Source of the DNA: a phage
Sequence record: PZ452579.1
Direction: 5' to 3' (one strand)
Length of the DNA: 64,000 bases
In this document: piece after piece, positions 42,679 through 59,550 of the stretch
Layout of the letters: the number at the start of each line of letters is the position of its first letter
Position numbering within the stretch: the stretch's first letter is position 1
Notes under the pieces: model-generated
Database searches by the model: none
Told to the model about the DNA's origin: nothing
The model's input: only the letters and a program-made list of their open reading frames with translations
Program-made: the position numbers and the translations under genes

Positions 42679-42704
42679 TTTATATTCCTCATGTTGAAAA
42701 ATTT

Positions 42705-43729: not shown

Positions 43730-43791
43730 AACTATTTCCTCAGATTGAATTGGAACTCAAAACCATTATAACCCGTCCTTGGGTAAAGCGT

Positions 43792-44319: not shown

Positions 44320-44922
44320 GTTTTACCTCCAGTAGTTGATAGGTCTATAATAACATAACCATAGACCTTGTAAACAACTAAAAGAAACTTTTTTCGGTAT
44401 TTTTTCCACTGAACCAAACCGACTTCGGTATTTTCTGTAATTTTTCAGATTTAAGTTTCTCTTCCTGTTCTTTCTTATATACACCCTTGTCGTACTGGAG
44501 CATCTCTATGGCATTCTTTTGCAAACGATCTAAGGTAATTAAGGCTTTAGTTTTTCCTTTCAAGGAAGAGTCCTGGCGAACCTCCTCGCTATATTGCATC
44601 GTAGAACTAACCATACGATGAGCATAGAGTTCGACTGCGGCTTTAATTTTTTGCATAAAATCCATAACATATCCTCTTTGATTTGTACATCATTATTTTT
44701 AAATATTTCTATGCCCTCAGTAGGTTCCTGGTGTCCTTCTTTGAGGTAAGCCATATGATTATTCATCTTTATGGCTTTTGTTACCTCAGAACTTCCTATA
44801 AGCTTATTTCAGTAAAGTAACTTCCGAGATTTCTTCCCAACCATCTTTATCAGTTGAAATAAAATCTGCTACATAAAGAGCCGTACGTAATGATACATTG
44901 CGAAGACGAGATACGTTAGCCT

Positions 44923-45774
44923 TCATCCAGGACAATGCTTTATACGTTTCTGCATCATGTCAGTAGATAATATTACATCTTCAACTCGAACCATAATCTC
45001 TTCATTAGAGTGTACTCCAAGGTCCAAATACACTGAACGAGATACTAAAGCTTGAAGGTGGGGAGCAAGTTTCGAACCGCGTTCTAACTCTTTATCGATA
45101 TCAACGTTTGTAATGAAAACAATAGTACCTTCAAACTCAAATTCTTTATCAATACCCTTATCATCGAGATAAGATGACGCAGTGCTCCAACAAACTTTGC
45201 GTTTATCTCCGGTATCTAATGCTGCTTTAAGAAGGTTCAAGATGTCCATATCTGAGAATACGTCAACGTCGTCGATTAAGAGAACGCTGTCTGCATCACG
45301 GTTGAGCCAAAGTTGTTCGTAAAGGCCAATACCAGAGATTTTACCATTAATACTTTTGTATTTGATGAAACCATTATCATTAGCATTATTAAGTGCTTTA
45401 TCCAGAGAATACGTCTTACCAATACCGGCTGCACCTGAAATAATGAGTGAACGAATTTTGCCATCGATAATACCATTCGTCATCATGTTCATTACTTTAA
45501 AGCGTTTGTTGATACGAGTTTTCATATCTTCAGTGCTTTCAACAACTGCAACTGGTGATGTCTCAACTCCTTCCATTACGATGTCTGATTTGAAGACCCA
45601 TACTCCACGTTCAGAACCATCAATCATAACGAAAATTTTACCGTCACCTAAGTGGGAACATTCAGGATTAAGCTTTGCCGGGAACCATGTCTTTGTGGCA
45701 ACATAAGAACCAGAGATTTCGTTATTACGATAGATACCTTTTTTGATTTGAACGTTGAACATTTTATTCTCCAA
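44923..45774 (-). CDS. P-loop ATPase
   Basis: 283 aa; Walker A SGAAGIGKTYS and Walker B-like LLIDDVD. Confidence 0.6.
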   Translation of the reverse strand: MENKMFNVQIKKGIYRNNEISGSYVATKTWFPAKLNPECSHLGDGKIFVMIDGSERGVWVFKSDIVMEGVETSPVAVVESTEDMKTRINKRFKVMNMMTNGIIDGKIRSLIISGAAGIGKTYSLDKALNNANDNGFIKYKSINGKISGIGLYEQLWLNRDADSVLLIDDVDVFSDMDILNLLKAALDTGDKRKVCWSTASSYLDDKGIDKEFEFEGTIVFITNVDIDKELERGSKLAPHLQALVSRSVYLDLGVHSNEEIMVRVEDVILSTDMMQKRIKHCPG

Positions 45775-45832
45775 ATTTACTCATTTCGTTTCGATAGGTC
45801 TATAATAACATGTTTAAAGCAAAAGTAAACAA

Positions 45833-46051
45833 TTATTTGCGACGAGATTTTTTGGTAAGAGGTTGAAAGAACACTGCTTTACCAGCAGGAGTCAAAGTGA
45901 CTCGTAATGCATTACCGATTCCCAAGGATGCTTTAACAAGACCTTTAGATTTCAGTTCACCGAATGCTTGACGTTGGTCTGCATCACGAGTGTTAACCAT
46001 AAGACCTTTATCACCAGCTTCACGAATCATTTCTAACATTTTGGTTTTCAT
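45833..46051 (-). CDS. Small basic protein
   Basis: 72-aa ORF. Confidence 0.45.
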   Translation of the reverse strand: MKTKMLEMIREAGDKGLMVNTRDADQRQAFGELKSKGLVKASLGIGNALRVTLTPAGKAVFFQPLTKKSRRK

Positions 46052-46138
46052 TTTGTTTTCTCCTCTTGTTTTGATAGGTCTATAATAACATATCCTAAAA
46101 GCATGTACACTACTTTTTAAAAATATTTTGACCCCCTA

Positions 46139-46156
46139 AAGGGCCCGAAGGCCCTT
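46139..46156 (-). terminator. C(UUCG)G hairpin 3' of the nucleotidyltransferase gene
   Basis: AAGGGCC-CGAA-GGCCCTT; directly after stop at 46158. Confidence 0.5.
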
Positions 46157-46157
46157 A

Positions 46158-47156
46158 TCATTTATAATACGAATTGTGGTTTTCTAAGTAGACTTGCTCA
46201 AGGAAATCATCCCAGAAACTCATATCTACTTTTTGTTGCATACCGTTCTTAGCGGCTTGTTCTGATGCTTGTTCAACTTGTTCAACTTGTTCAACGATAT
46301 CTTCTAGGAATTCTTGCACAGTTTTAAACGTATGTTTACCAAGCTTAACATCGAGAATAAATGGAGCATCCTGAAGTGGGTAAACCAGGTCGCCGGTTTT
46401 GTAAATTTCCAATAGTTGAAGTCCACCACGGCATGCATGACTCAATGCTTTCCAATCAATACCTTCATTGGCTTCTGCCTTACGAGCACGTTCACCGTAG
46501 TTCTCTTCAAGTTTAACCAGGATGGCATTGAACTCTTTGTTAGTTAACGTATCTTGGAATTTACGGTCCAACAGACTATAGAATGTTTGCTTACCTGTTT
46601 TCTCGTTTTCAGTTTCAACCCATGAAGCAAATTCACCTATAGGCAGAACATTCTTCATATGTGATAAACGAATTACTGCACCGTTATCAAAGTATTGTCC
46701 CCATTCATTAGAACGTTTAAGGGCTTGACGAAGAACAGCCAGTCGAGAACCCTTGACACCGTATTTAGAAGCTTGCTTACGGACATACCCTAAATAAGAT
46801 TTCATGTTAGTGGTATAGAAACGAGACCTGTTATCTTGAATATACTTCCATACATCAGGCAAATCAGATTTAACTACTAGACTTTGTGGAGTGTGAAGCA
46901 TATCTAATGCGACGGTTTCACCATCCGCAGCTAGTTTAAAGAAATATTTGAGACTATACAACTCATGGTCTACGTCGTCTTTTGTGTTCTTAGAAGATGT
47001 GTTATTCGTGTTCTTGCTCATGTGTTCTTTAACGTTACCGGTCAAGATATCACGAGCATGAGGGACATAAATTTCTTTAAAATCGACGTCAGATTCAGGA
47101 GTAGACGTTCCATAAAGGTGGCTACCAAAGTAGCCTTTCATAATTGTTTTCATCAT
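46158..47156 (-). CDS. Pol-beta-superfamily nucleotidyltransferase-like protein
   Basis: 332 aa; N-terminal GSHLYGTSTPESDVDF (GS-x10-DxD) minimal NTase motif. Confidence 0.55.
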   Translation of the reverse strand: MMKTIMKGYFGSHLYGTSTPESDVDFKEIYVPHARDILTGNVKEHMSKNTNNTSSKNTKDDVDHELYSLKYFFKLAADGETVALDMLHTPQSLVVKSDLPDVWKYIQDNRSRFYTTNMKSYLGYVRKQASKYGVKGSRLAVLRQALKRSNEWGQYFDNGAVIRLSHMKNVLPIGEFASWVETENEKTGKQTFYSLLDRKFQDTLTNKEFNAILVKLEENYGERARKAEANEGIDWKALSHACRGGLQLLEIYKTGDLVYPLQDAPFILDVKLGKHTFKTVQEFLEDIVEQVEQVEQASEQAAKNGMQQKVDMSFWDDFLEQVYLENHNSYYK

Positions 47157-47626
47157 TTAGCCTTATATTCAATAACAGGACACACTTTAGCTTTACGAGC
47201 TTTTAAAAATTCAACGATAATCGATTTCTTGGGTTGAATAGGCTCAAGTCCATTTTTGATTCGTTCTTCGTTTTGTACAATGATCTCAATTTCTTTATTG
47301 AGCTTTCGGTCGTTATATTTGTCTAACAACCAGGAAGGACCAATTACCGCCCCGACAGCAATAAGAACCATTACTGATAATGTTAAAATGCCTATACCAA
47401 TTGAAGCCGGAACTAATGTCCATAGACTACTAAAGACAAAGAATTTAATTAAAATTTCTTGGCCAATGATTGCGGCACCTGCTAAAGTTGCAAATCCAAC
47501 AATTGAAACAGCTAATACCGGGAGAAACGTTTTCCAAAAATAAGCACACAACGTTTTCGGACGATTCCATGTACTATTGAACGCGGCATAAATTTTAAAG
47601 TGCCAAGAGTTTTCATTGATAATCAT
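47153..47626 (-). CDS. Membrane protein (multi-TM)
   Basis: 157-aa ORF. Confidence 0.5.
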   Translation of the reverse strand: MIINENSWHFKIYAAFNSTWNRPKTLCAYFWKTFLPVLAVSIVGFATLAGAAIIGQEILIKFFVFSSLWTLVPASIGIGILTLSVMVLIAVGAVIGPSWLLDKYNDRKLNKEIEIIVQNEERIKNGLEPIQPKKSIIVEFLKARKAKVCPVIEYKAK

Positions 47627-47635
47627 AATAATTCC

Positions 47636-48178
47636 TTATTTCAAAGTTGGGATAATAGAATCAAGATAAGCTTTAAGAGCAACTGCTTCATCTTTGTCTA
47701 ATGTAATGATATGTTGACGAAGGTCATCAATTTGGCGAATAACTACGACATCACCGTCTTCATAAGAAGGATTAACTCCCAGGACTGTTGTATAGTCAGG
47801 GCGGTCCTGATTTGTAATAAAAGCATTACGGCATTTAGCCCATTGAAGTTTGGCCTTTTTGGCTGTTTCAGATTCCATGAATTCTTTCACCTTAGCGACA
47901 AATGTTTTCCAATTATTAATAGAAAAACATTCATCTTCGGTTTCGATATTAACCCCACTATAAAGTCCGTGATAAAAACGAACTTGAAGGTCTTCATCAA
48001 TGTTAATTACAGATGCATGACCGGGTGGATTGAGTTTCAAAATCTTGTCTAGTTCCATAGGAAGAATAGTAACAACATCATCTTCTTGCGTCAGAACGTA
48101 CGCATAACCACGTTTTTCGATACATAAATCACCAAACAACTCAGTCGTTTCAATTACAGTTTTCATATTATTCACCAA
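47636..48178 (-). CDS. Hypothetical protein
   Basis: 180-aa ORF. Confidence 0.5.
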   Translation of the reverse strand: MVNNMKTVIETTELFGDLCIEKRGYAYVLTQEDDVVTILPMELDKILKLNPPGHASVINIDEDLQVRFYHGLYSGVNIETEDECFSINNWKTFVAKVKEFMESETAKKAKLQWAKCRNAFITNQDRPDYTTVLGVNPSYEDGDVVVIRQIDDLRQHIITLDKDEAVALKAYLDSIIPTLK

Positions 48179-48402
48179 TTAAAGTTTCAACAAAATTCAC
48201 CAAATCATTCTGACGAGCATCAATCTGATTTCTATAAAAATTAAATAAGATCCATCAATTTATTAGCTTGTTCACAGGTCATTTTACCATACTCGCTTCA
48301 ATAAGATTCATTACACCATTTACCATGTTATACGTAAACATCGGATAATTGTATTGTACTACAACATAAGCAATAAGCAAAAGTTTCATTTTGTTCTCCG
48401 TT

Positions 48403-48445
48403 TGTTTTGGTAGGACTACTATAACATAGTCCTACCAAGATGTAA
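48403..48445 (-). promoter_or_regulatory. Early-promoter/inverted-repeat cassette
   Basis: Minus strand GTTTAC, inverted repeat TTGGTAGGACTA / TAGTCCTACCAA bracketing GTTATAG. Confidence 0.55.
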
Positions 48446-48910
48446 ACTACCGATTGTGTTTTAAATGTTGATAAAGTTCTTCAACTTGTTTAGGGTCCAA
48501 AACAATTAAGTCATTTTCTTGGCGAAGATAAATCCATCCCTTATCCCCAGGGCCATTTTTACAAAACATCACTGCCGCCATATCATCATCTTCAGCGCTT
48601 TCAGGTAAAAGTTCAAGTACACCGTCTTCAGATTTTCCAGTATAATCGTAAAGCATAATATCCTCACATAATCTCGTTAACATACATTTGCAATTCAGTG
48701 TGCGTATCAGCCATCTTTTTCATTGCCTTATTGATATCGATATCACCGTCTTCACACCCGTGGGCATTTTCCCAATCGGATACAGCGTTAGCGTACTCTT
48801 CAATCAAAAACATTAACTTAGAAATTTTTTCTTTACGTGACATAACGTTCTCCTCTAGTAAGTAAGGTCTACTATAACACAACCTGAGGAGAAGTAAACT
48901 GCTAAATGCA

Positions 48911-48940
48911 AAAAAGCCCCAACCTTTCGGAAGGGGCTTT
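48911..48940 (-). terminator. Intrinsic terminator (GAAA-loop hairpin plus U-run), repeat copy A
   Basis: AAAAAAGCCCCAACCTTTCGGAAGGGGC; 28 bp identical to copy at 49533..49562. Confidence 0.65.
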
Positions 48941-48942
48941 GA

Positions 48943-49500
48943 TTAGTTTTTGTAATATCGTAAAGGGTTGATATGGAATGAAAGCATTGCGCGTGGAATA
49001 GGACGACTCAAAAGACTCTTAAGTTTCCAACCACAGTAAACACGCAGATAAAATGTAATACCACCAACCTTAAGATAAGGTATAGCAGCGAATAATCCCC
49101 ATGCAGACTCGTTCCAAACTAAAAGATATCCATGATGTGCCGGATCAGGAGATCCAGATTTAGTTTCGGCGTTGCCTTTATAGTGCCATTCTGATGAAGC
49201 TTCGCGACCTAAAACATGATACGAAAAATTATATGCTTTGTTGCGCCATAGCCAAGCTACGCGTTGAGCATATTTACCTATAACAGGAATTTTACGTATT
49301 TTAGACCAACGTTCAACATGGCCGTGGTCACCATCGATAGGATTATCGTAAGTCATCATCCAGTCAAAGCCATAAGGTAGTTTACCGGTTTTTTCACTAT
49401 GGAATGGAACTACAAATGGTGCTAGAATAATTGCTAAAATCGCTGCGATCCAATCTATAGGAACAAGAACAACCCAACTTATGTATTTTAAAAATTTCAT
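48943..49500 (-). CDS. Membrane protein
   Basis: 185-aa ORF with N-terminal TM segments; flanked by identical terminator repeats. Confidence 0.55.
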   Translation of the reverse strand: MKFLKYISWVVLVPIDWIAAILAIILAPFVVPFHSEKTGKLPYGFDWMMTYDNPIDGDHGHVERWSKIRKIPVIGKYAQRVAWLWRNKAYNFSYHVLGREASSEWHYKGNAETKSGSPDPAHHGYLLVWNESAWGLFAAIPYLKVGGITFYLRVYCGWKLKSLLSRPIPRAMLSFHINPLRYYKN

Positions 49501-49525
49501 ATATCCTCTCTTAGTTTACAAGGAT

Positions 49526-49533
49526 ATTTATAC
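49526..49533 (-). promoter_or_regulatory. Late promoter TATAAATA
   Basis: Plus tatttata about 26 nt upstream of ATG at 49500, immediately after terminator copy B. Confidence 0.55.
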
Positions 49534-49562
49534 AAAAAGCCCCAACCTTTCGGAAGGGGCAG
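49533..49562 (-). terminator. Intrinsic terminator (GAAA-loop hairpin plus U-run), repeat copy B
   Basis: CAAAAAGCCCCAACCTTTCGGAAGGGGC directly 3' of the ORF ending at 49568. Confidence 0.65.
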
Positions 49563-49567
49563 GTAAA

Positions 49568-49870
49568 TTAGATAGATGTAGGCTCTAATTTTATTTTCAT
49601 GAACTCGGCAAATTGTCTGGCAGTTTTTATGCCTTGTTCATGACATTCAAATGCATCATCACAGGGGCTATTTTTGTAATGCTTTGCCATATACTTATAA
49701 AATTTTTCAGAATTCTCAACATTTTGAATTTCGAACAAAGTATATACGTTTTTAATCCCTGATTCCATAAAGTTGTCAAAGTACGGGTCGACATATGCAG
49801 TGCCAACGATAGGAGTTGTTGCTGCAAAAAACCCCAGCATCGCCACAATGGCTATCGCTCTTAAGGCCAT
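49568..49870 (-). CDS. Secreted small protein
   Basis: 100 aa with signal-peptide-like N-terminus. Confidence 0.5.
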   Translation of the reverse strand: MALRAIAIVAMLGFFAATTPIVGTAYVDPYFDNFMESGIKNVYTLFEIQNVENSEKFYKYMAKHYKNSPCDDAFECHEQGIKTARQFAEFMKIKLEPTSI

Positions 49871-50119
49871 ATAGGCCTCCTGTTAATTTTGGCCAGTATT
49901 TATTTTTCGCCTTTGGACGGCCTTAACATCTGCGAGGTATTTTTCCAGCTTACGCTTACGAGTATAATCTGCTTTAGAACCAGTTTGACGGATATCCTCA
50001 TTTAAATGAGAAATAGAATGTCCTAATTCTCTTCGGATTTCATCCAATTGGGTTACAGTAAGATTACGAAGTTGTCTTTCGTTTAATTGCTGCATATATA
50101 CCTCTTGGTTAGATATTAG

Positions 50120-50127
50120 TATTTATA
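50120..50127 (-). promoter_or_regulatory. Late promoter TATAAATA
   Basis: Plus tatttata about 25 nt upstream of ATG at 50095. Confidence 0.5.
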
Positions 50128-50704
50128 ACAACCCTGTCAAATCATTCCAATGCTTCCGGCATAATGACACATATTTATCGGTATCACCAATTTCAATTTG
50201 TCCGCCATCTATAATTGGAAGTCCATCTTCCGTGACTCTAGCTACCATTGTGGCTTTTTTACCGCAATGACAGACACCTTTAAGTTCAACAAGCTTATCG
50301 GCGATAGCCATTAATGCTTGAGAACCTTCAAATAGATTACCTTTAAAATCTGTTCGTAGCCCATATGCCATTACCGGCACATTGTATACGTCAACAATGC
50401 GACTAAGTTGATACACCTTTTCAGTAGTTAAGAACTGAGCTTCGTCAACAAATACACAGTGAATATCCTTTTGTGCTGCGGCCCATTTATAGAATTCAAA
50501 GATATCCATGTCTTTTGTAATTATATTGGCATCCTGACGAATACCAATACGAGAGACTATTTCACCTTTTGAATCACGAGTATCAATAGCCGGTTTAAGA
50601 ACTAATACACCCATGCCACGTTCTTTATAGTTATGTGCGGCGGTAAGTAATGAAGCAGACTTACCAGCGTTCATAGCGGCATAGGTAAAAATTAAACTAG
50701 CCAT
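50123..50704 (-). CDS. tk: Thymidine kinase
   Basis: 193 aa; MASLIFTYAAMNAGKSASLL P-loop and C-terminal zinc motif CHCGKKA; T4 Tk is 193 aa. Confidence 0.92.
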   Translation of the reverse strand: MASLIFTYAAMNAGKSASLLTAAHNYKERGMGVLVLKPAIDTRDSKGEIVSRIGIRQDANIITKDMDIFEFYKWAAAQKDIHCVFVDEAQFLTTEKVYQLSRIVDVYNVPVMAYGLRTDFKGNLFEGSQALMAIADKLVELKGVCHCGKKATMVARVTEDGLPIIDGGQIEIGDTDKYVSLCRKHWNDLTGLL

Positions 50705-51095
50705 AAGAGCCCCTTATAGTGAATTCACATAGTCAATGAGTTCTTGTTCTTTCCTGTCAAATGATTCCATCAATGCTTGATATTCTTCATCTGTTAAAGG
50801 AGCATATTCATCGTACGCATTGGTGGCTGTTTGCTCATCCAATAGGTCATGGATAAGTTCGAACAGTTTAGTTTTCTCTTCTTTAGTCAATTTCATTTAG
50901 GTTCACCTTCTTTAACGAAATCTGGGTAAGGGTAAAATCCTGAGTAAAACCCTTCACCTTTATGATTGCTACAACCTTTGTTCGAACAGTAACACCAATA
51001 ATCAAAATCACAAGCCATTTCGTCATTGCATAAAGCAAAAACTACAGGCCATTCGCATTTTTCGCATTTAGCACCTGTAAGAATTTTTGTTTGGC

Positions 51096-51593
51096 TCATA
51101 ACAATGGTTCCCAATCAACAATCACAATTTCTAGTTTAGTGGAATATGTATCTAAAATCTCTTCGATGACATCCCAATTTCCACCACCGATACCTGCACC
51201 AATTCTTGGCATATAAATTACAGGCTTTGTTATCTTATTCTTTCCGAATTCATTTAATTCTATTATACAATTCATTAAAGCAGAGTACTCAAAATTAGGT
51301 CCCGGCTCAAACTGTGTATAAAGATTAAAGCAATAAGCTTTATGGGTCTTAAAATATTTTTCATAAACCGAATAAGTCCCGAGTTTAGACTCGTCTCCGA
51401 ATTCGGTTTGAAGTTTATCGGCTTCCAGAATTTTTGGATAAGCCTTTGCTAATTGTCCTGCCACACCGGCGCCCATTGTATGAAAACAATTACACCCATG
51501 AGCAATATTATTACCTTTAGAAAACAGGGCGACAATATCGCCCTTGATATAGTTTTTAATCACTTGCTGCAAGTCCTCTAGTATAAGAGTCAA
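51096..51593 (-). CDS. Macro-domain protein (ADP-ribose binding/hydrolase)
   Basis: 165 aa; NCFHTMGAGVAG and RIGAGIGGG glycine-rich loops typical of macro domains. Confidence 0.7.
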   Translation of the reverse strand: MTLILEDLQQVIKNYIKGDIVALFSKGNNIAHGCNCFHTMGAGVAGQLAKAYPKILEADKLQTEFGDESKLGTYSVYEKYFKTHKAYCFNLYTQFEPGPNFEYSALMNCIIELNEFGKNKITKPVIYMPRIGAGIGGGNWDVIEEILDTYSTKLEIVIVDWEPLL

Positions 51594-51903
51594 CTAGACG
51601 GTCCACCATAGAATTGCATGCTGCCTTATCTTTAGGTTCCGCCACCGAGCATTCTAATATTTGCCATTTTTTATAGTATCTTTTAATTAAGGTAGACGCC
51701 TTGAACCTACTAGACGCCCCATCTTTTTCTCCGTCTTTATATGCGTATAACAATTTTTGTGAAAAATCTACTTTACACTCTTGACTTTTACCACAATAAT
51801 CAGACGCCGTTCTGTTTGTATACTCCGTTACATCAGTATATGTAGTATTAGCAAGAGCGTTAAATGAAACCAAGCCAACTATTAAAGCCAACATTTTGGT
51901 CAT
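51556..51903 (-). CDS. Secreted Cys-containing small protein
   Basis: 115 aa with signal peptide MTKMLALIVGLVSFNALA. Confidence 0.5.
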   Translation of the reverse strand: MTKMLALIVGLVSFNALANTTYTDVTEYTNRTASDYCGKSQECKVDFSQKLLYAYKDGEKDGASSRFKASTLIKRYYKKWQILECSVAEPKDKAACNSMVDRLVDSYTRGLAASD

Positions 51904-52442
51904 TCTTTTATTTCCAGTAGTTTATTTGATTTAAGGTAATTAGCCTTTTCTAGGACTTCAGAAGCATATTTACTTCCAGCACTTGTCTTCCATCCCGCAT
52001 TATATGAGGATATAGCTTTTCTTATATCCCCATTATGTATATTTAACCAATAAGAAAATTCGATATAAGCCCATCTGGCTGAATTAGACCGCTTAGATAG
52101 CATTTTCTTAATTTGGGCATCAGTCATATTATAACCAAGCTGGTTAATTCTTTCCCTCATTGTTGGTAGATAGTTTTGGAACATTCCATACGCATGGTGA
52201 CCTTTCTTATCTTTAAGATTAATACCGGCAGATGATTCCTGCCATAGTATTGCGGCCATTATGTATCCAAGTCCTTTCTTATGCATATTTTCATGCGTTT
52301 TAAATTTTCCATCCTTAGAAAACTGTTCCCCAAACTGATAAGCATAATTCAAGTTATCGAGTTGGACATTACTAAAAGTATGCTCGGAGCCATGTGCTGA
52401 TAACGAAAGAGCAAATAGACCAGCGAGTAGTGCTTTTCTCAT
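51900..52442 (-). CDS. Secreted lytic-transglycosylase-like protein (SLT domain)
   Basis: 180 aa; signal peptide, then WQESS, AYGMFQ, YNAG motifs. Confidence 0.6.
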   Translation of the reverse strand: MRKALLAGLFALSLSAHGSEHTFSNVQLDNLNYAYQFGEQFSKDGKFKTHENMHKKGLGYIMAAILWQESSAGINLKDKKGHHAYGMFQNYLPTMRERINQLGYNMTDAQIKKMLSKRSNSARWAYIEFSYWLNIHNGDIRKAISSYNAGWKTSAGSKYASEVLEKANYLKSNKLLEIKE

Positions 52443-52450
52443 GTTTACCT

Positions 52451-52909
52451 CTAGATTTTAATCACTGCTTTAGAAGCTTTTCCTGGTAGTCGTTTACTGT
52501 TAATAATAGCCATTCTGCATTGAAGAGTCTTCATTTTGAATGCTGGATTTTCGCGACAAACTGTAAGTCCTAACCAAAGATTTCCATCAGTTATTTCTAA
52601 ACGGCCTGGGCGATATTCGACACCTTCGACAAAATCTTCATCAACATCTGGACGTGCCGGCATTGATAAAAATTCTGCAACTTCTTTAACATGATTTTTT
52701 ACTTTACGAAATAATTCAAAAACGTAATTCTCATCTATTTCTCTCTGGATGGCACGATCTAAGAGATGTTGAGAATACTTGATATGAAAGCCTGGTAGTC
52801 CAAGAGACTTTGCAGCATCTTTTATACAGGCATTGATTTGACGAAACTCCGTTTCAAAGATTCGACGGAGTTTATTGCGACGGATAAAAACTTCCGAATT
52901 GATAGTCAT
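52451..52909 (-). CDS. regB: Endoribonuclease RegB
   Basis: 152 aa; MTINSEVFIRRNKLRR... consistent with T4 RegB size and sequence as remembered. Confidence 0.75.
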   Translation of the reverse strand: MTINSEVFIRRNKLRRIFETEFRQINACIKDAAKSLGLPGFHIKYSQHLLDRAIQREIDENYVFELFRKVKNHVKEVAEFLSMPARPDVDEDFVEGVEYRPGRLEITDGNLWLGLTVCRENPAFKMKTLQCRMAIINSKRLPGKASKAVIKI

Positions 52910-52918
52910 TTTTATTTC

Positions 52919-52968
52919 TCCTCTAGTTGACAGGTCTATAATAACACAACTACTGGAGAAGTAAACTA
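52919..52968 (-). promoter_or_regulatory. Early-promoter/inverted-repeat cassette, second copy of the 11099..11147 element
   Basis: AGGTCTATAATAACACAACTACTGGAGAAGTAAACT identical to 11113..11148. Confidence 0.6.
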
Positions 52969-53185
52969 CTTTATTGATAAAATGGAGTTAAAGCCCAAGA
53001 TTCTTTAGATACCATATCGGCGAAATGCCTCATCTCTTCGATTTGGCGACGACGCTGGTCAGCATAGTCTTCTTCGCCTTCTTCCTTACAGTCTTCAAGG
53101 TCTTCTTCAAGATACTTTAAGTATTCACTACAAATTTTGTTGACCTTTTCTTGAAAGTCCAATAACCCAGTAATAGTAGAAGCCA

Positions 53186-53620
53186 TTAGTATTTTTCCTC
53201 AGGTCGAAATACTGCACGACACGCCCACATGCTGGCTTCTTTTAGATGTTGCTTAGCATACTTAAGAGCCTGCACTGCATCCATATCTTCTTTGGTTTGT
53301 TGCTCTGTTTCATTTTCTTTCAAGATATATGCTTCTTCAATCAGAGCATCAAACATCAATCCAAGACGGACTTCTGCATCTTTAATAGCGTTCACTTTAC
53401 CGATTTTATCGTCGGTATGTGGCTTGTAGCCTTTAATATCTTCAATCGACATAAGGAATTTCCTCATCTGTGGCAAGGTCATATTCGACCAATTGGATAG
53501 GCTCATTAATACCATATCCACGTACAGTGATATCAGTTGTCGGATAGTTTCCAGTAATATCACCCGTTCTAAATGCTTCAATGAATGATTGCTCGCCTGA
53601 GCAACTAAACCAGGCGGCAA
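53186..53620 (-). CDS. Hypothetical protein
   Basis: 144-aa ORF. Confidence 0.5.
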   Translation of the reverse strand: MPPGLVAQASNHSLKHLERVILLETIRQLISLYVDMVLMSLSNWSNMTLPQMRKFLMSIEDIKGYKPHTDDKIGKVNAIKDAEVRLGLMFDALIEEAYILKENETEQQTKEDMDAVQALKYAKQHLKEASMWACRAVFRPEEKY

Positions 53621-53665
53621 AACATTTTAAAACATCTTCAGACCCTTCTATAATCAATTTAGACA

Positions 53666-54028
53666 TTATAGACTCTCAGTAAAGGTACGAGCGATAACGT
53701 CGCGCTGCTGTTCTGGAGTCAGAGAGTTAAAGCGAACTGCATAACCGGATACACGGATGGTCAGCTGCGGATATTTTTCCGGATGCTTAACTGCATCTTC
53801 CAGAGTTTCACGACGCAGAACGTTAACGTTCAGATGTTGACCACCTTCAATTTTAACTTTAGGTTGATGTTCAATTTCAATTTCACGGGCATTCAAACCG
53901 TAGAAAATTTCCGGGTCTACAATAGCGTCTTCTTTAAAAGTCTTAGAGACAATAATCCGGGCTTGAGTGCCGTCTTCAAAATAAATAGTGCCTTTATGTG
54001 CACCTTCAAGAATTTGATATGCTTTCAT
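53666..54028 (-). CDS. Autonomous glycyl-radical cofactor (GrcA/YfiD-like)
   Basis: 120 aa; C-terminal half ...[59 protein letters not shown] matches remembered E. coli GrcA; glycyl-radical motif RVSGYAV. Confidence 0.85.
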
Positions 54029-54339
54029 ATAACCTCAATTAGAAAATAAATTTATCCAAGTTTTTTCTTTAATCAAAAATGGGTCGGAATTAAACGCCAT
54101 TAAACTTTGAGTGATTAATCCCTTAAATGGCCCATCAATAAATTCCATTTTGAAATGCGGAATACTAGTCATCAACCGTGCATTAGGAGCAGTACAAAGA
54201 ACTTGCTGCCCTGCGAACGGACCTTTAGTCAAACGATATCGTTTAGGTTTAAAATGGTAAATCTCATAATTTTCTACAAGGGCCCTTTTATTGCATACTG
54301 GGCTGTTATATCAATACTCAAAAACTTCAATAGTGGTCA

Positions 54340-54879
54340 TCATTGCATTCCAATCACAAAAAATTGAGGACGAGCATTACCGCCGATGCAATATTTGCTT
54401 TTGCAGCAGTGCTGTAATGTTTTAATGTGGACGTTGTAAATCTTATCCATATCAGGAGCTTTAATAGGCTCGTCAATTATATACAGAATACGAGAAAGCG
54501 TTAATCCACGGAATTTAGAACCTTCATTGCCAATAAAACTACGAACAGAATCAGTAAATAAACGGAATCGAATATCATCGCTAGAATAACGAGAAAATTC
54601 TTTTTCAATGTTGCCAGCAGAAATTTTAGCATAAGCTGAAGTATTAGAAAGAACAATAACTGTTCCGCCATCATACAACCAATTAGCAGCAAAGTTAGTC
54701 ACAGCAATTGATTTACCGGATTGACGTCCACCGTCTAAACGAAGTGTACAGTACTGTTTGAGTACGTCTTCAAACGGTGGGATATAACCATTCTTACAAA
54801 TTTCTTCTACTCTAGCATCAGAATGGTGTGTAAAAGCATTCATCAGGGATAGATAAGGACCAGTTAAAAATGTTCTCAT
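54340..54879 (-). CDS. Small P-loop NTPase
   Basis: 179 aa; Walker A GGRQSGKS, Walker B-like LYIIDEP. Confidence 0.55.
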   Translation of the reverse strand: MRTFLTGPYLSLMNAFTHHSDARVEEICKNGYIPPFEDVLKQYCTLRLDGGRQSGKSIAVTNFAANWLYDGGTVIVLSNTSAYAKISAGNIEKEFSRYSSDDIRFRLFTDSVRSFIGNEGSKFRGLTLSRILYIIDEPIKAPDMDKIYNVHIKTLQHCCKSKYCIGGNARPQFFVIGMQ

Positions 54880-55052
54880 TTAGTTTCTCTTTTAGGTTGG
54901 GGCCATTCCGTGGCACATGTTAGGTCCTTCGACTCGCTATGTAAACCCATTACCGCATTGCGCTCGACCTTATTACAGGTTGGAAAAGGTACATCACTCA
55001 GAGGACTCGACGTTCATGAGGAGAGGTTGCGTTTCCCTTTATTAGGCAAGAA

Positions 55053-55382
55053 TTATACTCTAGGCTTTTGAGCTTGTTTGGTATTGGATTCCCATGCGGC
55101 TTTGGTAATTTTGTTAGCGGCATAACCAAAGGCATTAGATAGAACACCTTTAGAGTTGAATACATCCAATCCAATAAGTACACCGGCTGTGTTAAATTTA
55201 GGAGCAAAGTACGCATTAGTTTTAGAAAGAGCTTTTTTCAATTCAGGGTCTTGAACCAAGCCATCAAAAACGCCTTTACTATTTACTTTATATGTTACTT
55301 TGGGATTTTTACCTTCTTCGATAGCAGCTTTCTGTTCCGCAGATAATGTAACTTCAGTGATAAACTCTTGATACGTTTTCAT
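55053..55382 (-). CDS. Internal head protein (IP) with capsid targeting sequence
   Basis: N-terminus MKTYQEFITE matches T4 IP CTS (MKTYQEFIAE). Confidence 0.7.
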   Translation of the reverse strand: MKTYQEFITEVTLSAEQKAAIEEGKNPKVTYKVNSKGVFDGLVQDPELKKALSKTNAYFAPKFNTAGVLIGLDVFNSKGVLSNAFGYAANKITKAAWESNTKQAQKPRV

Positions 55383-55407
55383 TTTGTTCCTATTGTTTTA
55401 ATTTATG

Positions 55408-55722
55408 TTATTCTTTAGGGAAGTTTTTAGAGTATGCGTCATAAAGTTTATTACCGATGCGACGGAAGACTTTAGCTGCAAAACGGTTTTCAGGGTTTTT
55501 AATCATGATTTGCATCATGTAAGTTCCTGCATCCGAAAGAGCTTCTTCGTAGTACCCATTAATTTCTTTAAGAGTCCTACGTTTACCACCAGGACCATCA
55601 ACAGTAATTTTCCATTTACCTGTAGAAGTGCGGCTCGGTGGCTCAACTTGTTCAATCCAAATATAACCACCTTCAACGCGTTGGTTGGCGGATTCTGCAA
55701 TAAATTCTTTATATGTTTTCAT
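55408..55722 (-). CDS. Internal head protein (IP) with capsid targeting sequence
   Basis: N-terminus MKTYKEFIAE. Confidence 0.7.
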   Translation of the reverse strand: MKTYKEFIAESANQRVEGGYIWIEQVEPPSRTSTGKWKITVDGPGGKRRTLKEINGYYEEALSDAGTYMMQIMIKNPENRFAAKVFRRIGNKLYDAYSKNFPKE

Positions 55723-55786
55723 TTTTTGTTTCCTTGTTTGTTTTGATAGAGTAATTATACCATATTAATACTTAAGCGTAAACAAT

Positions 55787-56047
55787 TTAAGCTTTACCGC
55801 CAGAAATAATTCCGAAGTTGTTAAAATCGTATCCAATATCGTCAACATCTACTTTAGGACTTACTACAACATAAGCAATTTCACTACGTTTTGCATAGGT
55901 GTTGATTTCTTTACCATCGCCACCTAAGAAAGAATACCCATTACGTTTTAATGAGCCAAAGTCTTCCGCATCACCAATGAAAGCTTTAACTTTAAATTTG
56001 GGGTCTTTGGCATCTGCTTCAGCTATAAATTCTTGATACATTTTCAT
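55787..56047 (-). CDS. Internal head protein (IP) with capsid targeting sequence
   Basis: N-terminus MKMYQEFIAEA. Confidence 0.7.
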   Translation of the reverse strand: MKMYQEFIAEADAKDPKFKVKAFIGDAEDFGSLKRNGYSFLGGDGKEINTYAKRSEIAYVVVSPKVDVDDIGYDFNNFGIISGGKA

Positions 56048-56053
56048 TTTTCC

Positions 56054-56467
56054 TTAGTAAATTGATTTACCATAGTATTTGTACCAAGTCGGACGTTGAG
56101 CAATTTTTTCATCTAAGCGTGCTTGACTTATCGCAATGGACGCTTCGGACGGGACGTAATTATTACGAAATTCTACAGGGATGTCGGAAATATCCTGGAC
56201 AGTCGTGTCCTTGATTTTGAAACCACGTTTCAAACATTCGGCGATTAGCTCGATTTGTCGTAAACGTAAAAATTCAAGTTTGTCGTAAAAGAATGTTACG
56301 TGACCTGTGCCTAAGATAAATGTTGGAGAGATTTTAAAATCCTTTACACGTTTACCGTTTTGAACATGTTTACGGACTGCACCAAATACGCGTGGTAATT
56401 CACGATACTCAGCCATAAGATGTTGGTCGGTCAGTTCAGAAACAAGTGTTAAATTGATACGGGTCAT
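56054..56467 (-). CDS. denV: Endonuclease V (pyrimidine dimer DNA glycosylase) DenV
   Basis: [35 protein letters not shown]... near-identical to T4 DenV; start at homologous Met. Confidence 0.92.
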
Positions 56468-56477
56468 AATTTCCTCC

Positions 56478-56525
56478 AAGTAGTTGATGAATGTATAGTA
56501 TCAAAACCCTTGGAGGAAGTAAACA
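56478..56525 (-). promoter_or_regulatory. Early-promoter/inverted-repeat cassette upstream of denV
   Basis: Minus strand GTTTAC, inverted repeat CCTCCAAG / CTTGGAGG around TACTATACA. Confidence 0.55.
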
Positions 56526-56807
56526 CTATTTTTCTGAAGCGCCTGAAATATATTTTTCAAGTCGTTGCTTCATTAGCGAGCCGTTCTTAGCGATTTCTTC
56601 CGGTTTATCGCACATACGTAACAAGGCTTCAAGCTTAGCGATATCGCTGGTACGTTCAAATTTGCGAGTATCTATCTTACTAGCAAGTTCAGAAATACGT
56701 GCTAATAGACTTTCGGCTTCAACCAAAGCTGCACCTAGCTTAGTTGCAAATGTGTCAGTAGCTTCGTTAAGAATAGATTCTGATAAAAATTCACTATATG
56801 TTTTCAT
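56526..56807 (-). CDS. Internal head protein (IP) with capsid targeting sequence
   Basis: [10 protein letters not shown] from ATG at 56807; its ATG overlaps the e stop codon (ATGA). Confidence 0.65.
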
Positions 56808-57292
56808 ATATACGCTTTCCAAGTTCCTGTTTTAAATGTTGAGATTACGCGTTTCGCGCGATTAGGTGTCTGACGATACCATTTAGATTGGGCTAGATTT
56901 ACTGCCGCCTCGTCCCAACGTTTCTGTTGAAGCATACGAAGAGAATTAGTAAAACCGGCGACGCCTGCTACACCCATTTGGAAGACCATATTGACCAATG
57001 CACATCGACGAACCGCATCTAAAGAATCATATACCGGTTTAAGTTTAGCATTACCCAAGATTCCGCGAACGGCTTTATCAACGTCTTCATTAAATAGCTT
57101 TTCAGCCTCATCAAGGGTAATTGTACCGTTGCATTTACGTCCGATCATTCTGTCAAGTTCAGCTTTAGCTACGGCTAAAGACGGGTTCTTTGTTACTAAA
57201 TGGCCTATGCCAATCGTCCAAAAGCCTTCAGTGTCTTTGTATAAAGTCAGTCTAAGACCTTCGTCATTACGAAGCATTTCAAATATATTCAT
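56804..57292 (-). CDS. e: Lysozyme (endolysin) e
   Basis: [32 protein letters not shown]... near-identical to T4 lysozyme; start at homologous Met. Confidence 0.95.
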
Positions 57293-57296
57293 AATA

Positions 57297-57316
57297 CCTC
57301 CCACGTTTATAGGAGG
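57297..57316 (-). promoter_or_regulatory. RBS-sequestering hairpin in the lysozyme 5' UTR
   Basis: CCTCC...GGAGG inverted repeat where the GGAGG arm is the SD 4 nt before the e ATG; matches the known T4 e regulatory arrangement. Confidence 0.5.
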
Positions 57317-57326
57317 TATTTATTAC

Positions 57327-57785
57327 TTATAGGAGGGTAGTGAGCACCTTATATAATGATTTGCCCATTACATATTCCCATTGAGAAGGTTTAATTAAAG
57401 CGAATGCATCAAATTCAGGAATCTGTCGTCCGTCTGGGAATGTATGATAGGAATTACAAACACTGTTTCTGAATTGCTCGTGCTCTACAGGGATGGTATA
57501 TTGGAACAGATGAATATTCTTATTGTCTGAGTAATGATGTTCACCTAGGTCTTTCAGGAAGGCAGGGTCATATTGTGTAAACCCAGTTTCTTCTTCGCAT
57601 TCACGAATAGCGGCTTCAATAGGAGATTCGCCAGGTTCGACACGGCCTTTAGGAATATCCCACCGATGAGCTAATGCACCTTTAGGACGAGAACCAGTTA
57701 CACGCCCCATGAATAATTCTTTATCTTCGGTAAGGAAAATAATACCGGCTGATAGTTCTTTCACTTTATTTTTCTTACTCATCAT
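57327..57785 (-). CDS. nudE: Nudix hydrolase NudE
   Basis: 152 aa; Nudix box GRVEPGESPIEAAIRECEEETGF. Confidence 0.8.
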   Translation of the reverse strand: MMSKKNKVKELSAGIIFLTEDKELFMGRVTGSRPKGALAHRWDIPKGRVEPGESPIEAAIRECEEETGFTQYDPAFLKDLGEHHYSDNKNIHLFQYTIPVEHEQFRNSVCNSYHTFPDGRQIPEFDAFALIKPSQWEYVMGKSLYKVLTTLL

Positions 57786-58026
57786 CTCGGTCCCATGATT
57801 TGGCCATTAATTCGGACATAAATTCTTCAATACGCGTTTCTTTAGATGGACTTTCACTATTAGAGACCGCAAGTTTGTAATCTGCAATAGGACAGAACAT
57901 ATCAAGGTCCATATTAAGGTCGTCTTTGATTTTTTCTTCTGACACATCTTTATCGTATGTGTACAGATAACTATCACATGATTCTGATTTAATGTAAATT
58001 GCTATACTCATCTCAAATTCCTGCAT
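57775..58026 (-). CDS. Hypothetical acidic protein
   Basis: 83-aa ORF. Confidence 0.45.
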   Translation of the reverse strand: MQEFEMSIAIYIKSESCDSYLYTYDKDVSEEKIKDDLNMDLDMFCPIADYKLAVSNSESPSKETRIEEFMSELMAKSWDRDDE

Positions 58027-58487
58027 TCGGTAATAAAACGTTCAACTTCATTATTCTTGGCTTTTATCTTGTCTTTATGTTCTTGTAAACTACTTTTAAC
58101 AAGATTAATAATGATGCCTACAGCACCTCCACCAATAATACCACCAATAATACTTACGATAGTAGATGCTAATACGATAGCGATAATATCTAGTACAGCA
58201 AAGGCACTTACTTTAGTACTAAAAAACCATACCGACGGTACAAATATAATCCATCCTGTTATCCATTGACACTTATTGAAAAACTTTTCAAGCTCAGCTT
58301 GAGTTGTTCGTATTACTTCATCGATAGGTTGATATCCATTAATGTATCTGTTCACGATAATACCTGCTGGCTGGTCGATTTTAAATTCTTGGCAAATATG
58401 TTTCACTAAGTAGGATGGACATCCTGTCCAATCTACTGAATAATACGAAATACCTTCGTTGCCATCATCTATATTATTGTTAATCAT
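58008..58487 (-). CDS. Membrane protein
   Basis: 159 aa; central hydrophobic segments with glycine-zipper-like IIGGIIGGGAVGII. Confidence 0.5.
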   Translation of the reverse strand: MINNNIDDGNEGISYYSVDWTGCPSYLVKHICQEFKIDQPAGIIVNRYINGYQPIDEVIRTTQAELEKFFNKCQWITGWIIFVPSVWFFSTKVSAFAVLDIIAIVLASTIVSIIGGIIGGGAVGIIINLVKSSLQEHKDKIKAKNNEVERFITECRNLR

Positions 58488-59173: not shown

Positions 59174-59174
59174 A

Positions 59175-59480: not shown

Positions 59481-59550
59481 AATATTCTCCTCATGTTTTA
59501 ATAGGACTACTATAACATAATCCTATAATTGTGTAAACAGTTTTGCGAAA

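What the first reader, a model, noticed from the sequence alone, without database searches (positions are those of the whole stretch)
51096..51593. Macro-domain protein encoded alongside ModA/ModB ADP-ribosyltransferases
The 165-aa ORF has hallmark macro-domain glycine-rich loops (NCFHTMGAGVAG; RIGAGIGGG). Macro domains bind or remove ADP-ribose, so this could reverse or tune the phage's own ADP-ribosylation (modA/modB at 3165..4412) or counter host ADP-ribosylation-based defenses such as DarT-type DNA ADP-ribosylation.
Basis: partly seen in the sequence, partly recalled or inferred. Interest (0 to 1): 0.5.

Follow-up and report, generated by a model that had tools for sequence, protein, structure and literature searches.

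The report
T4 tk.4/adfM macrodomain, anti-DarTG2 gene
This is the well-conserved macrodomain gene tk.4 of a T4-like phage, whose T4 counterpart was recently shown by knockout to protect the phage from the bacterial DarTG2 defence that ADP-ribosylates DNA, so the finding is correct but already known.

Summary
The ORF is real and encodes a macrodomain protein. Pfam Macro scores above its cut-off. The AlphaFold model has pLDDT 95.8, and its best structural matches are TARG1, Poa1p, BT1257 and DarG macrodomains. The true start is probably the GTG at 51563 (155 aa), not the TTG at 51593.

The window is a Tequatrovirus. The gene sits between vs and tk, as T4 tk.4 does, and is 85% identical to it. 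A 2025 preprint found tk.4 to be the only T4 gene needed on DarTG2-expressing hosts; a clean knockout sensitised T4, and the gene was renamed adfM. The link to ModA/ModB is not: those genes lie 47 kb away, and the macrodomain occurs in far more phages than Mod-like enzymes do.

One refinement: this family has an invariant Gln where DarG and TARG1 have their catalytic Lys. Streptomyces SCO6735 has the same substitution and still cleaves thymidine-linked ADP-ribose from DNA. PhiKZ "AdfM" is a separate, Lys-type, DarG-like lineage. No one has yet shown enzymatic activity for the T4-type protein.

Verdict: already known, low to moderate interest.

The parts
51096..51563 (-). tk.4 / adfM coding sequence: GTG start, 155 aa, TGA stop. 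A standalone macrodomain protein.
   Evidence: ORF listing. Same length and position as annotated T4 tk.4 and JK45 'macro domain-containing protein'. 85% identity to T4 Tk.4 over all 155 aa. Pfam Macro. AF2 pLDDT 95.8. Foldseek matches to macrodomains.
51564..51593 (-). It is probably not part of the protein and lies inside the 3' end of vs.
   Evidence: T4's ATG aligns with the window's GTG at 51563. Homologues below about 84% identity align only from residue 11. The JK45 and T4 annotations are 155 aa.
51575..51578 (-). Shine-Dalgarno-like GAGG, 11 nt upstream of the GTG start.
   Evidence: Read directly from the sequence. GAGG is also present at the same place in T4.
51486..51500 (-). Codons 22-26, HGCNC. 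This covers the His and Asn of the ribose-binding pocket. N25 matches the Asn that was mutated in PhiKZ AdfM (N23A), and, through the DarG Asn, SCO6735 Asn27 (N27S).
   Evidence: H22 and C26 are invariant and N25 is present in 60 of 61 in alignment A2. N25 aligns to PhiKZ N23 and to the DarG Asn. Mutant data are in PMC13309987 and PMC9411070.
51456..51476 (-). Codons 30-36, MGAGVAG: glycine-rich loop 1, the macrodomain GxG phosphate and ribose loop.
   Evidence: G33 and A35 are invariant and G31 is nearly so. Aligned with the MGAG/MGKG loop of TARG1 and DarG.
51312..51326 (-). Codons 80-84, NLYTQ. Q84 occupies the position of the catalytic Lys of TARG1 (K84) and DarG (K80), as Gln85 does in SCO6735.
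   Evidence: N80, Y82 and Q84 are invariant in 61 phage and metagenome homologues and in 80 bacterial homologues. The profile alignment to TARG1 pairs Q with K. hhalign against a DarG profile pairs NLYTQ with NFPTK. The SCO6735 Gln85 equivalence and the dead Q85A mutant are in PMC9411070.
51174..51209 (-). Codons 119-130, PRIGAGIGGGNW: glycine-rich loop 2, the diphosphate-binding loop. G126 sits where TARG1 has catalytic D125.
   Evidence: P119, I121, G122 and G124 are invariant; G128 and W130 are nearly so. Alignment to TARG1 GCGLDRLQW.
51556..51903 (-). vs (valyl-tRNA synthetase modifier), the upstream neighbour. Its last 8 nt overlap the tk.4 start, so the two genes sit on one transcription unit.
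   Evidence: ORF listing. Synteny with T4 and JK45.
50893..51099 (-). Downstream 68-aa zinc-binding small gene. Its ATG overlaps the tk.4 stop (ATGA). The tk.3 gene that T4 and JK45 carry here is absent.
   Evidence: Pfam PF23895, E 5e-29. 100% identical to JK45 gene L001:2893-3099; a tk.3 homologue is missing.

Best explanation
The gene is the orthologue of phage T4 tk.4, recently renamed adfM (anti-DarT factor, macrodomain). It encodes a small standalone macrodomain, made from the leftward vs-to-tk gene block.

**Proposed mechanism.** The host DarT2 toxin of a DarTG2 defence system attaches ADP-ribose to thymidines in single-stranded phage DNA and blocks replication. The macrodomain binds the ADP-ribose through its two glycine-rich loops and cleaves it off the base, restoring replicable DNA.

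**Likely chemistry.** It probably does not use the lysine-based chemistry of DarG or TARG1, because an invariant glutamine (Q84) occupies that position and is held by N25. Streptomyces SCO6735 has the same arrangement. There the Gln positions the distal ribose and a water molecule starts hydrolysis.

**Shown here:** macrodomain identity, orthology with T4 tk.4, and the active-site make-up.

**Shown by others, for T4:** tk.4 is needed for growth on DarTG2 hosts.

**Inferred:** the same phenotype in this phage, and enzymatic removal of ADP-ribose from DNA as the mechanism.
For: - **Fold.** Pfam Macro scores above its cut-off. The AF2 model has pLDDT 95.8. The top Foldseek hits are TARG1, Poa1p, BT1257 and Taq/Mtb DarG macrodomains, all at probability 1.00.
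- **Defence-related models.** DarG is the only PADLOC hit (E 9e-9) and the only NCBIfam hit.
- **Orthology.** The window is 98% identical in DNA to Tequatrovirus genomes, with the same vs / tk.4 / tk order. The protein is 85% identical to T4 Tk.4 over its full length. None of the 24 differences falls on an invariant family position.
- **Function of the orthologue.** tk.4 was the single significant hit of the T4 transposon library on a DarTG2 host, and a clean knockout sensitised T4 (bioRxiv 10.1101/2025.11.20.689424). Before that, T4 lacking adfA and adfN was reported to remain DarTG2-resistant, which pointed to a further factor (PMC11825919).
- **Chemistry is feasible without the Lys.** SCO6735 has Gln85 at the Lys position and cleaves dT-linked ADP-ribose from DNA. 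Its Q85A and N27S mutants are inactive or nearly so (PMC9411070). Q84, N25 and H22 are invariant or nearly invariant here.
- **Precedent in another phage lineage.** PhiKZ AdfM removes DarT2-made ADP-ribose from DNA in vitro (PMC13309987).
- **Consistency check.** Phage T5, reported as DarTG2-sensitive, has no detectable macrodomain of either type. Its best profile E-value is 0.14, against 2.7e-65 for the T4 control.
Against: - No biochemical assay exists for T4-type AdfM. The preprint itself says only that enzymatic removal 'seems likely'. It is not peer reviewed, and the text I read does not mention catalytic mutants or complementation.
- The catalytic Lys of DarG/TARG1 and the Asp of TARG1 are both absent: Q84 and G126.
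- The protein fails the NCBIfam DarG equivalog cut-off, 31.9 bits against 250. It also lacks DarG's C-terminal domain.
- The link to SCO6735 rests on a published equivalence plus my alignments to TARG1 and DarG. I could not obtain a direct alignment to SCO6735.
- The window allele differs from T4's at 24 positions and has not itself been tested.
- Predicted pI is 5.6, which is not what one expects of a DNA-binding surface. This is a weak argument.
Confidence: 0.72

Rival explanations
1. The protein neutralises DarT2 mainly by binding the toxin or its substrate site stoichiometrically. Hydrolysis of the DNA adduct would be absent or secondary.
For: Catalytically dead SCO6735 (Q85A), DarG (K80A) and TARG1 (K84A) all inhibit DarT in vitro, and SCO6735 does so most strongly (PMC9411070). 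The T4-type protein lacks the DarG catalytic Lys. The T4 genetics do not separate binding from catalysis.
Against: The whole ADP-ribose pocket (H22, N25, G31/G33, Q84, G122/G124) is invariant across 61 phage and 80 bacterial homologues. A pure binder of one toxin would not need that. Most bacterial homologues sit in housekeeping contexts with no DarT nearby. The protein has no equivalent of DarG's C-terminal DarT-binding domain.
Confidence: 0.12
2. The protein reverses or tunes the phage's own protein ADP-ribosylation or RNAylation by Alt, ModA and ModB.
For: The phage encodes ModA/ModB-type ARTs in the same window. Macrodomains are erasers. At least one macrodomain class (Legionella MavL) is described in its paper's title as arginine-specific (PMC10951314, listed).
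Against: There is no linkage: the genes are about 47 kb apart. The phyletic ranges do not match: 2801 phage records carry the macrodomain, including many genera outside the T4-like enterobacterial phages that hold most Mod-like ART hits, against 1064 with a Mod-like ART. The nearest structural relatives are TARG1, DarG, SCO6735 and Poa1p, and MavL is not in the top 50. The T4 screen text I read reports the DarTG2 phenotype for tk.4 and no other. Two literature searches found no supporting paper.
Confidence: 0.05
3. The protein is a small-molecule enzyme. It could be an ADP-ribose-1''-phosphate phosphatase or O-acetyl-ADP-ribose deacetylase, as older annotation says, or a degrader of ADP-ribose-derived immune signals or toxic metabolites.
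For: RefSeq calls T4 Tk.4 'phosphatase; A1pp motif' and PHROG 335 is labelled 'phosphatase'. Yeast Poa1p gives the highest TM-scores normalised to the query, about 0.80. A comparative-genomics survey argued that most phage macrodomains target low-molecular-weight ADP-ribose derivatives (PMC9503650).
Against: These labels come from homology only. Poa1p has Ser, not Gln, at the key position (alignment). The only phenotype reported for tk.4 is against a DNA-modifying system. This activity could coexist with the main one.
Confidence: 0.08

Closest known systems
Phage T4 Tk.4 = AdfM (anti-DarT factor macrodomain), bioRxiv 10.1101/2025.11.20.689424
   Same: Same genomic slot between vs and tk, same 155-aa length, 85% identity, and all family-invariant residues shared. 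Proteins 97-99% identical to the window's are already deposited as 'macro domain protein' in many Tequatrovirus records.
   Different: There are 24 substitutions, including K127 in T4 against G127 here in glycine loop 2; the window matches the family consensus at that site. The start codon is GTG here and ATG in T4. The downstream tk.3 gene is missing here.
Streptomyces coelicolor SCO6735 (PDB 5e3b), a standalone macrodomain that cleaves thymidine-linked ADP-ribose from DNA
   Same: A standalone macrodomain of about 160 aa in the ALC1/TARG1-like class. It has Gln at the position of the DarG/TARG1 catalytic Lys. The supporting Asn is conserved, and a His lies three residues before it. It is not encoded next to a DarT (PMC9411070; PDB profile hit E 3.5e-14).
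   Different: Sequence similarity is distant and the gene is bacterial and DNA-damage-inducible. The residue equivalence is transitive, through TARG1 and DarG, not from a direct alignment. The DNA-contacting residues Lys34 and Lys89 of SCO6735 were not mapped here.
DarG antitoxin of DarTG2 (PDB 5m31, 5m3e, 5m3i, 7omu)
   Same: Same macrodomain fold (TM about 0.72-0.78) and profile-profile probability 98.7%. It is the only PADLOC and NCBIfam model hit. It counters the same toxin.
   Different: The catalytic Lys (FPTK) is replaced by Gln (NLYTQ). There is no C-terminal DarT-binding domain: 155 aa against about 330-400. It is not encoded beside darT. It scores 31.9 bits against the 250-bit equivalog cut-off.
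PhiKZ gp104 'AdfM' (chimallivirus DarG2-like macrodomain, PMC13309987)
   Same: A phage-encoded standalone macrodomain that counters DarTG2. Its conserved Asn (N23) aligns with N25 here.
   Different: It is a different lineage. gp104 matches Mtb DarG at E 9e-25 and keeps the FPTK lysine. The window protein matches gp104 only locally, E 6e-4 over 23 residues. Two groups gave the same name to non-orthologous proteins.
Bacteroides BT1257 (PDB 2fg1, 2afc), a structural-genomics macrodomain of unknown function
   Same: The best sequence hit in the PDB (E 6e-17 with the profile). It shares the N-x-x-x-Q motif and the GCGLAGGKW loop.
   Different: It has no known function. It reads HICND and NMIGQ where this family reads HGCNC and NLYTQ.

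Membership tests
Macro domain superfamily (Pfam PF01661) | Profile score at or above Pfam's gathering threshold | tested here: met
   28.1 bits against 22, covering profile positions 2-117 of 118
Macro domain superfamily (Pfam PF01661) | Three-layer alpha/beta/alpha fold with a mixed central sheet, superposable on solved macrodomains | tested here: met
   AF2 pLDDT 95.8, with 6 strands and 5 helices. Foldseek probability 1.00 and TM 0.67-0.81 to TARG1, Poa1p, DarG and viral Mac1.
Macro domain superfamily (Pfam PF01661) | Two glycine-rich ADP-ribose-binding loops and the conserved Asn near the distal ribose | tested here: met
   MGAGVAG, PRIGAGIGGG and N25 are present and conserved in the family
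T4 Tk.4 / AdfM orthologous group | Full-length high identity to T4 Tk.4 and the same position between vs and tk | tested here: met
   85% identity over 155 of 155 residues; synteny
T4 Tk.4 / AdfM orthologous group | Required for phage growth on DarTG2-expressing hosts | not testable with these tools
   Shown only for T4 itself in the preprint
DarG (DarTG2 antitoxin) | NCBIfam equivalog NF048014 score at or above its cut-off | tested here: not met
   31.9 bits against 250; only model positions 4-146 of 338 are matched
DarG (DarTG2 antitoxin) | Catalytic lysine (Taq DarG K80) in the FPTK motif | tested here: not met
   hhalign pairs NLYTQ with NFPTK, so Gln stands at the Lys position. It is invariant in 61 + 80 homologues.
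DarG (DarTG2 antitoxin) | C-terminal DarT-binding domain, and a gene adjacent to darT | tested here: not met
   The protein ends after the macrodomain at 155 aa. Its neighbours are vs and a small Zn-binding gene.
TARG1-type hydrolases | Lys84/Asp125 catalytic dyad | tested here: not met
   The profile alignment to TARG1 gives K84 to Q84 and D125 to G126
SCO6735-type (Gln) DNA ADP-ribosylglycohydrolases | Gln at the catalytic-Lys position, supported by the conserved Asn | tested here: met
   Q84 and N25. Their equivalence to SCO6735 Gln85 and Asn27 goes through the paper's own statements linking those residues to TARG1 and DarG.
SCO6735-type (Gln) DNA ADP-ribosylglycohydrolases | Hydrolysis of thymidine-linked ADP-ribose on ssDNA | not testable with these tools
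   Needs an in vitro assay
Poa1p-type ADP-ribose-1''-phosphate phosphatases | Close structural and active-site match to Poa1p | tested here: inconclusive
   The fold match is good (TM about 0.80). However, Poa1p has Ser where this family has the invariant Gln (alignment), and the activity was not tested.

The most novel reading that the evidence does not exclude
T4-type AdfM is not a captured DarG antitoxin. It would be a second, independent recruitment by phages of a different macrodomain lineage: the standalone, Gln-type BT1257/SCO6735-like proteins found in ordinary chromosomal contexts in many bacteria. On this reading it removes thymidine-linked ADP-ribose from DNA by water-mediated, lysine-independent chemistry. 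'AdfM' would then cover two mechanistically distinct enzyme classes, Lys-type in PhiKZ and Gln-type in T4. The roughly 2800 phages and hundreds of bacteria carrying the Gln type would all have a DNA de-ADP-ribosylation capacity that current DarG models miss.
Probability: 0.45. Interest if true: 0.4.

Novelty: already known. Interest (0 to 1): 0.25.

Why it matters
DNA ADP-ribosylation by DarT toxins is a widespread anti-phage defence. T-even phages now appear to carry a matched pair of erasers: NADAR AdfN for guanine adducts (DarTG1) and macrodomain AdfM for thymine adducts (DarTG2). This window adds one more allele of the second.

The one point beyond the literature is that the T4-type protein has Gln, not the DarG lysine, at the catalytic position. 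That predicts SCO6735-like chemistry and gives mutants to test (Q84A, N25A). The same family is found in about 5% of deposited phage genomes and in many bacterial chromosomes with no DarT partner. If the activity is confirmed, DNA de-ADP-ribosylation would be much more common than DarG annotation suggests.

Tried and rejected
- **The 165-aa reading from the TTG at 51593.** Rejected in favour of GTG 51563.
- **Functional coupling to ModA/ModB.** No linkage and mismatched distribution.
- **Direct alignment to SCO6735.** The PDB tool prints only the five best alignments, and 5e3b ranked 7th or 8th. A 50-residue fragment query found nothing. I therefore used the published equivalence plus my own alignments to TARG1 and DarG.
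- **Promoter and terminator scan of 49.8-54 kb.** It found no more sites than shuffled sequence gives, so I make no claim about transcription signals.
- **First structure job.** It was rerun without it.
- **DarT partner next to bacterial homologues.** The immediate neighbours of 80 loci fall into many small clusters, the largest being 6 of 80. One representative from each of four clusters was run against Pfam, and four more were read by eye. They are mostly housekeeping genes (rpoC, ileS, argC and others by my reading; a PLP-dependent enzyme, a DUF72 protein and an Exo_endo_phos nuclease by Pfam). The only ADP-ribose-related neighbour is a NADAR gene at 4 loci. No DarT turned up among these representatives; most neighbours were not scanned individually.
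- **A second macrodomain in the window.** None found.
- **tRNA and Rfam scans of the whole window.** Both empty.

Full report
**1. Observation.**
The minus strand carries an open frame from TTG 51593 to the stop at 51096. This is far more than chance:
- Pfam Macro (PF01661) scores 28.1 bits against a gathering score of 22.
- PHROG 335 matches at E 7e-67.
- tblastn finds relatives in 2801 of 50,697 phage records.
- An AlphaFold2 model built on 61 homologues has mean pLDDT 95.8 and pTM 0.91.
- Foldseek against the PDB returns only macrodomains at the top: TARG1 (E 2e-10), Poa1p, BT1257, and Taq and Mtb DarG, all at probability 1.00.

**2. Two corrections.**
*Start codon.* The protein most likely starts at GTG 51563, giving 155 aa.
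- T4 tk.4 and the JK45 orthologue are annotated at 155 aa.
- T4's ATG aligns base for base with this GTG, and a GAGG lies 11 nt upstream in both phages.
- Homologues at 84% identity or less align only from residue 11.
- The extra 30 nt are the 3' end of vs.

*Position relative to ModA/ModB.* The gene is not 'alongside' ModA/ModB. The ORFs at 3165..3773 and 3831..4412 are annotated as ModB/ModA-type ADP-ribosyltransferases in phages 98-99% identical in DNA (Pfam has no model that hits them). They lie about 47 kb away.

**3. What the locus is.**
The 3-kb surroundings are 98% identical to Tequatrovirus genomes such as ST2, JK45 and APCEc01. The gene order is regB, vs.1, vs, this gene, small genes, tk, as in T4. 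The protein is 85% identical to T4 Tk.4 (NP_049723) over all 155 residues. It is 97-99% identical to proteins already deposited as 'macro domain protein'. It is the only macrodomain in the window.

**4. What is known about the orthologue.**
A November 2025 preprint on transposon mapping of T4 gene essentiality (bioRxiv 10.1101/2025.11.20.689424) infected a DarTG2-expressing host with the T4 library.
- tk.4 was the single significant hit.
- A clean knockout sensitised T4 to DarTG2.
- The authors renamed the gene adfM.
- They state that enzymatic removal of ADP-ribose from DNA 'seems likely', based on predicted structural similarity to Mtb DarG.

Earlier work had shown that T4 lacking adfA and adfN (gene 30.3, a NADAR enzyme specific for guanine adducts) stays resistant to DarTG2. 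That predicted a further factor (PMC11825919).

Independently, a chimallivirus macrodomain, PhiKZ gp104, was also named AdfM. It was shown in vitro to remove DarT2-made ADP-ribose from an oligonucleotide, with N23A reducing activity (PMC13309987).

**5. Anatomy of the active site (my analysis).**
Across 61 phage and metagenome homologues the following positions are conserved:
- Invariant: H22, C26, G33, A35, D49, G62, N80, Y82, Q84, P119, I121, G122, G124.
- Nearly invariant: N25, T83, K60, G128, W130.

The profile alignment to human TARG1 pairs the family's N-L-Y-T-Q with Y-L-I-T-K, so Q84 stands where TARG1 has catalytic K84. It also pairs G-A-G-I-G with G-C-G-L-D, so G126 stands where TARG1 has D125.

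I built a small DarG-type profile from the Mtb, Taq and Thermosipho DarG macrodomains and PhiKZ gp104. The sequences came, and the alignment is A3. It aligns to the Tk.4 family at 98.7% probability and pairs NLYTQ with NFPTK. So Gln again sits at the DarG catalytic Lys.

The same Gln is present in all 80 bacterial homologues fetched. N80, Y82, T83 and Q84 were not part of the search patterns, so their conservation there is independent of how the loci were found.

Published work on Streptomyces SCO6735 gives the precedent (PMC9411070):
- It cleaves thymidine-linked ADP-ribose from DNA and protects against DarT.
- It is dead as Q85A or Q85E and nearly dead as N27S.
- The authors propose a water-initiated mechanism in which the Gln positions the distal ribose.
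- The dead mutant also inhibits DarT by binding.

The Tk.4 family thus shares the Asn and Gln of SCO6735. It also has a His three residues before the Asn, with the same His-to-Asn spacing as SCO6735 His24 and Asn27. I infer that the T4-type AdfM is a Gln-type enzyme like SCO6735, not a Lys-type enzyme like DarG. The equivalence to SCO6735 is transitive, because I could not print a direct alignment.

None of the 24 differences between the window allele and T4's falls on an invariant position. At position 127 the window (G) matches the family consensus and T4 (K) does not.

**6. Relationship to DarG and to PhiKZ AdfM.**
DarG is the only PADLOC model hit (E 9e-9) and the only NCBIfam model hit. 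Only the N-terminal macro part of each model is matched, and the NCBIfam score is 31.9 bits against an equivalog cut-off of 250. The protein has no C-terminal DarT-binding domain and no darT neighbour.

PhiKZ gp104 matches Mtb DarG at E 9e-25 and keeps FPTK. The window protein matches gp104 only over 23 residues, at E 6e-4. The two 'AdfM' proteins are therefore different macrodomain lineages that converge on the same defence system.

**7. Distribution and origin.**
Relatives occur in phages of Escherichia, Klebsiella, Salmonella, Pseudomonas, Vibrio, Acinetobacter and Aeromonas, among others.

A scan of one genome per bacterial species found 378 loci encoding relatives, and I examined the best 80.
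- The proteins are mostly standalone, 140-180 aa.
- They are 35-45% identical to the window protein and occur in many phyla.
- Their immediate neighbours are heterogeneous; the largest neighbour cluster is 6 of 80.
- One representative from each of four clusters was scanned against Pfam and four more were read by eye. They are mostly housekeeping genes. A NADAR gene lies directly adjacent at 4 loci. No DarT turned up among these representatives.

This fits recruitment from standalone bacterial macrodomains better than capture of a DarG antitoxin. It is an inference, not a phylogeny.

As a consistency check, phage T5, which both papers use as a DarTG2-sensitive phage, has no detectable macrodomain of either type. 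Its best profile E-value is 0.14, against 2.7e-65 for the T4 control.

**8. Rivals.**
- **(a) Stoichiometric inhibition of DarT2.** This is plausible as a contribution, given the SCO6735 data. The invariance of the whole ADP-ribose pocket, and its conservation in bacteria with no DarT nearby, argue for catalysis.
- **(b) Reversal of Alt/ModA/ModB marks.** There is no linkage. The distributions do not match: 2801 records against 1064, with different host ranges. The fold class is not the arginine-specific one. Two literature searches found no support. It remains biochemically untested.
- **(c) A small-molecule role.** This covers Appr-1''-p phosphatase activity, as in the RefSeq note, and degradation of ADP-ribose-derived signals, as proposed generally for phage macrodomains in PMC9503650. 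The support is by homology only, and Poa1p has Ser at the Gln position. It could coexist with the main role.

**9. Verdict.**
The macrodomain call and the DarT-countering idea are right, and the ModA/ModB association is not supported. The gene is an orthologue of an already named and genetically characterised T4 gene, so it counts as already known.

The residual value is the Gln-for-Lys active site. It predicts SCO6735-like chemistry, separates T4-type from PhiKZ-type AdfM, and gives clear mutants for the biochemical assay that is still missing.

Noticed in passing
window 51096..51099 and 50893..51099 (-); compare L001:3096-3308 and L002:3714-3926: The window lacks tk.3, the 70-aa gene that follows tk.4 in T4 and JK45. 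About 209 nt are gone cleanly, from one ATGA stop/start junction to the next. The tk.4 stop now overlaps the ATG of a 68-aa zinc-binding gene (PF23895, 100% identical to the JK45 gene). One database phage, FL31, matched this region in a single BLAST piece and so may share the shorter form.
   Followed up: partly
window 51526..51544 (-), inside tk.4 codons 7-13: An 8-bp GC-rich hairpin (AGGGCGATATTGTCGCCCT) followed by a U-rich run lies about 20 nt into the coding sequence. It is identical in T4, including at synonymous positions. It could be an intragenic attenuator or RNase target, or simply codon conservation. The terminator scan overall found no more sites than shuffles give.
   Followed up: partly
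window 51556..51903 (-): vs (valyl-tRNA synthetase modifier) overlaps the tk.4 start by 8 nt. The same preprint reports vs as the most strongly depleted T4 gene in minimal medium, so two conditionally essential genes sit back to back.
   Followed up: no
L029, L036, L042, L064 (bacterial loci), about 3.4-4.0 kb in each: In 4 of the 80 bacterial loci examined (three Ruegeria and one Bacteroidales), a NADAR-domain gene (Pfam E 3e-36) lies directly upstream of the Tk.4-type macrodomain gene, within -19 to +8 nt, with no DarT among the neighbours checked. This looks like a possible two-enzyme DNA de-ADP-ribosylation cassette covering both guanine and thymine adducts, mirroring the AdfN plus AdfM pair of T4.
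   Followed up: partly
L083-L085 (phage T5, NC_005859): T5, used in the literature as a DarTG2-sensitive phage, has no Tk.4-type or DarG-type macrodomain. Its best profile E-value is 0.14, against 2.7e-65 for T4. T5 is annotated with two Sir2-like genes, T5.102 and T5.105.
   Followed up: yes
L001:4109-4651 (JK45) versus window 51900..52442 (-): The JK45 GenBank record labels the vs.1 orthologue 'Endoribonuclease RegB'. That protein is 180 aa with a weak SLT transglycosylase match (E 0.0015, below the Pfam cut-off). The real regB is the next gene, at window 52451..52909. The annotation is shifted by one gene.
   Followed up: partly
window 1..64000: There are no tRNA genes and no Rfam family at gathering threshold anywhere in the 64-kb window.
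   Followed up: yes
literature: Two groups independently gave the name AdfM to non-orthologous phage macrodomains: T4 Tk.4 (Gln-type) and PhiKZ gp104 (DarG-like, Lys-type). This may cause confusion in annotation.
   Followed up: yes
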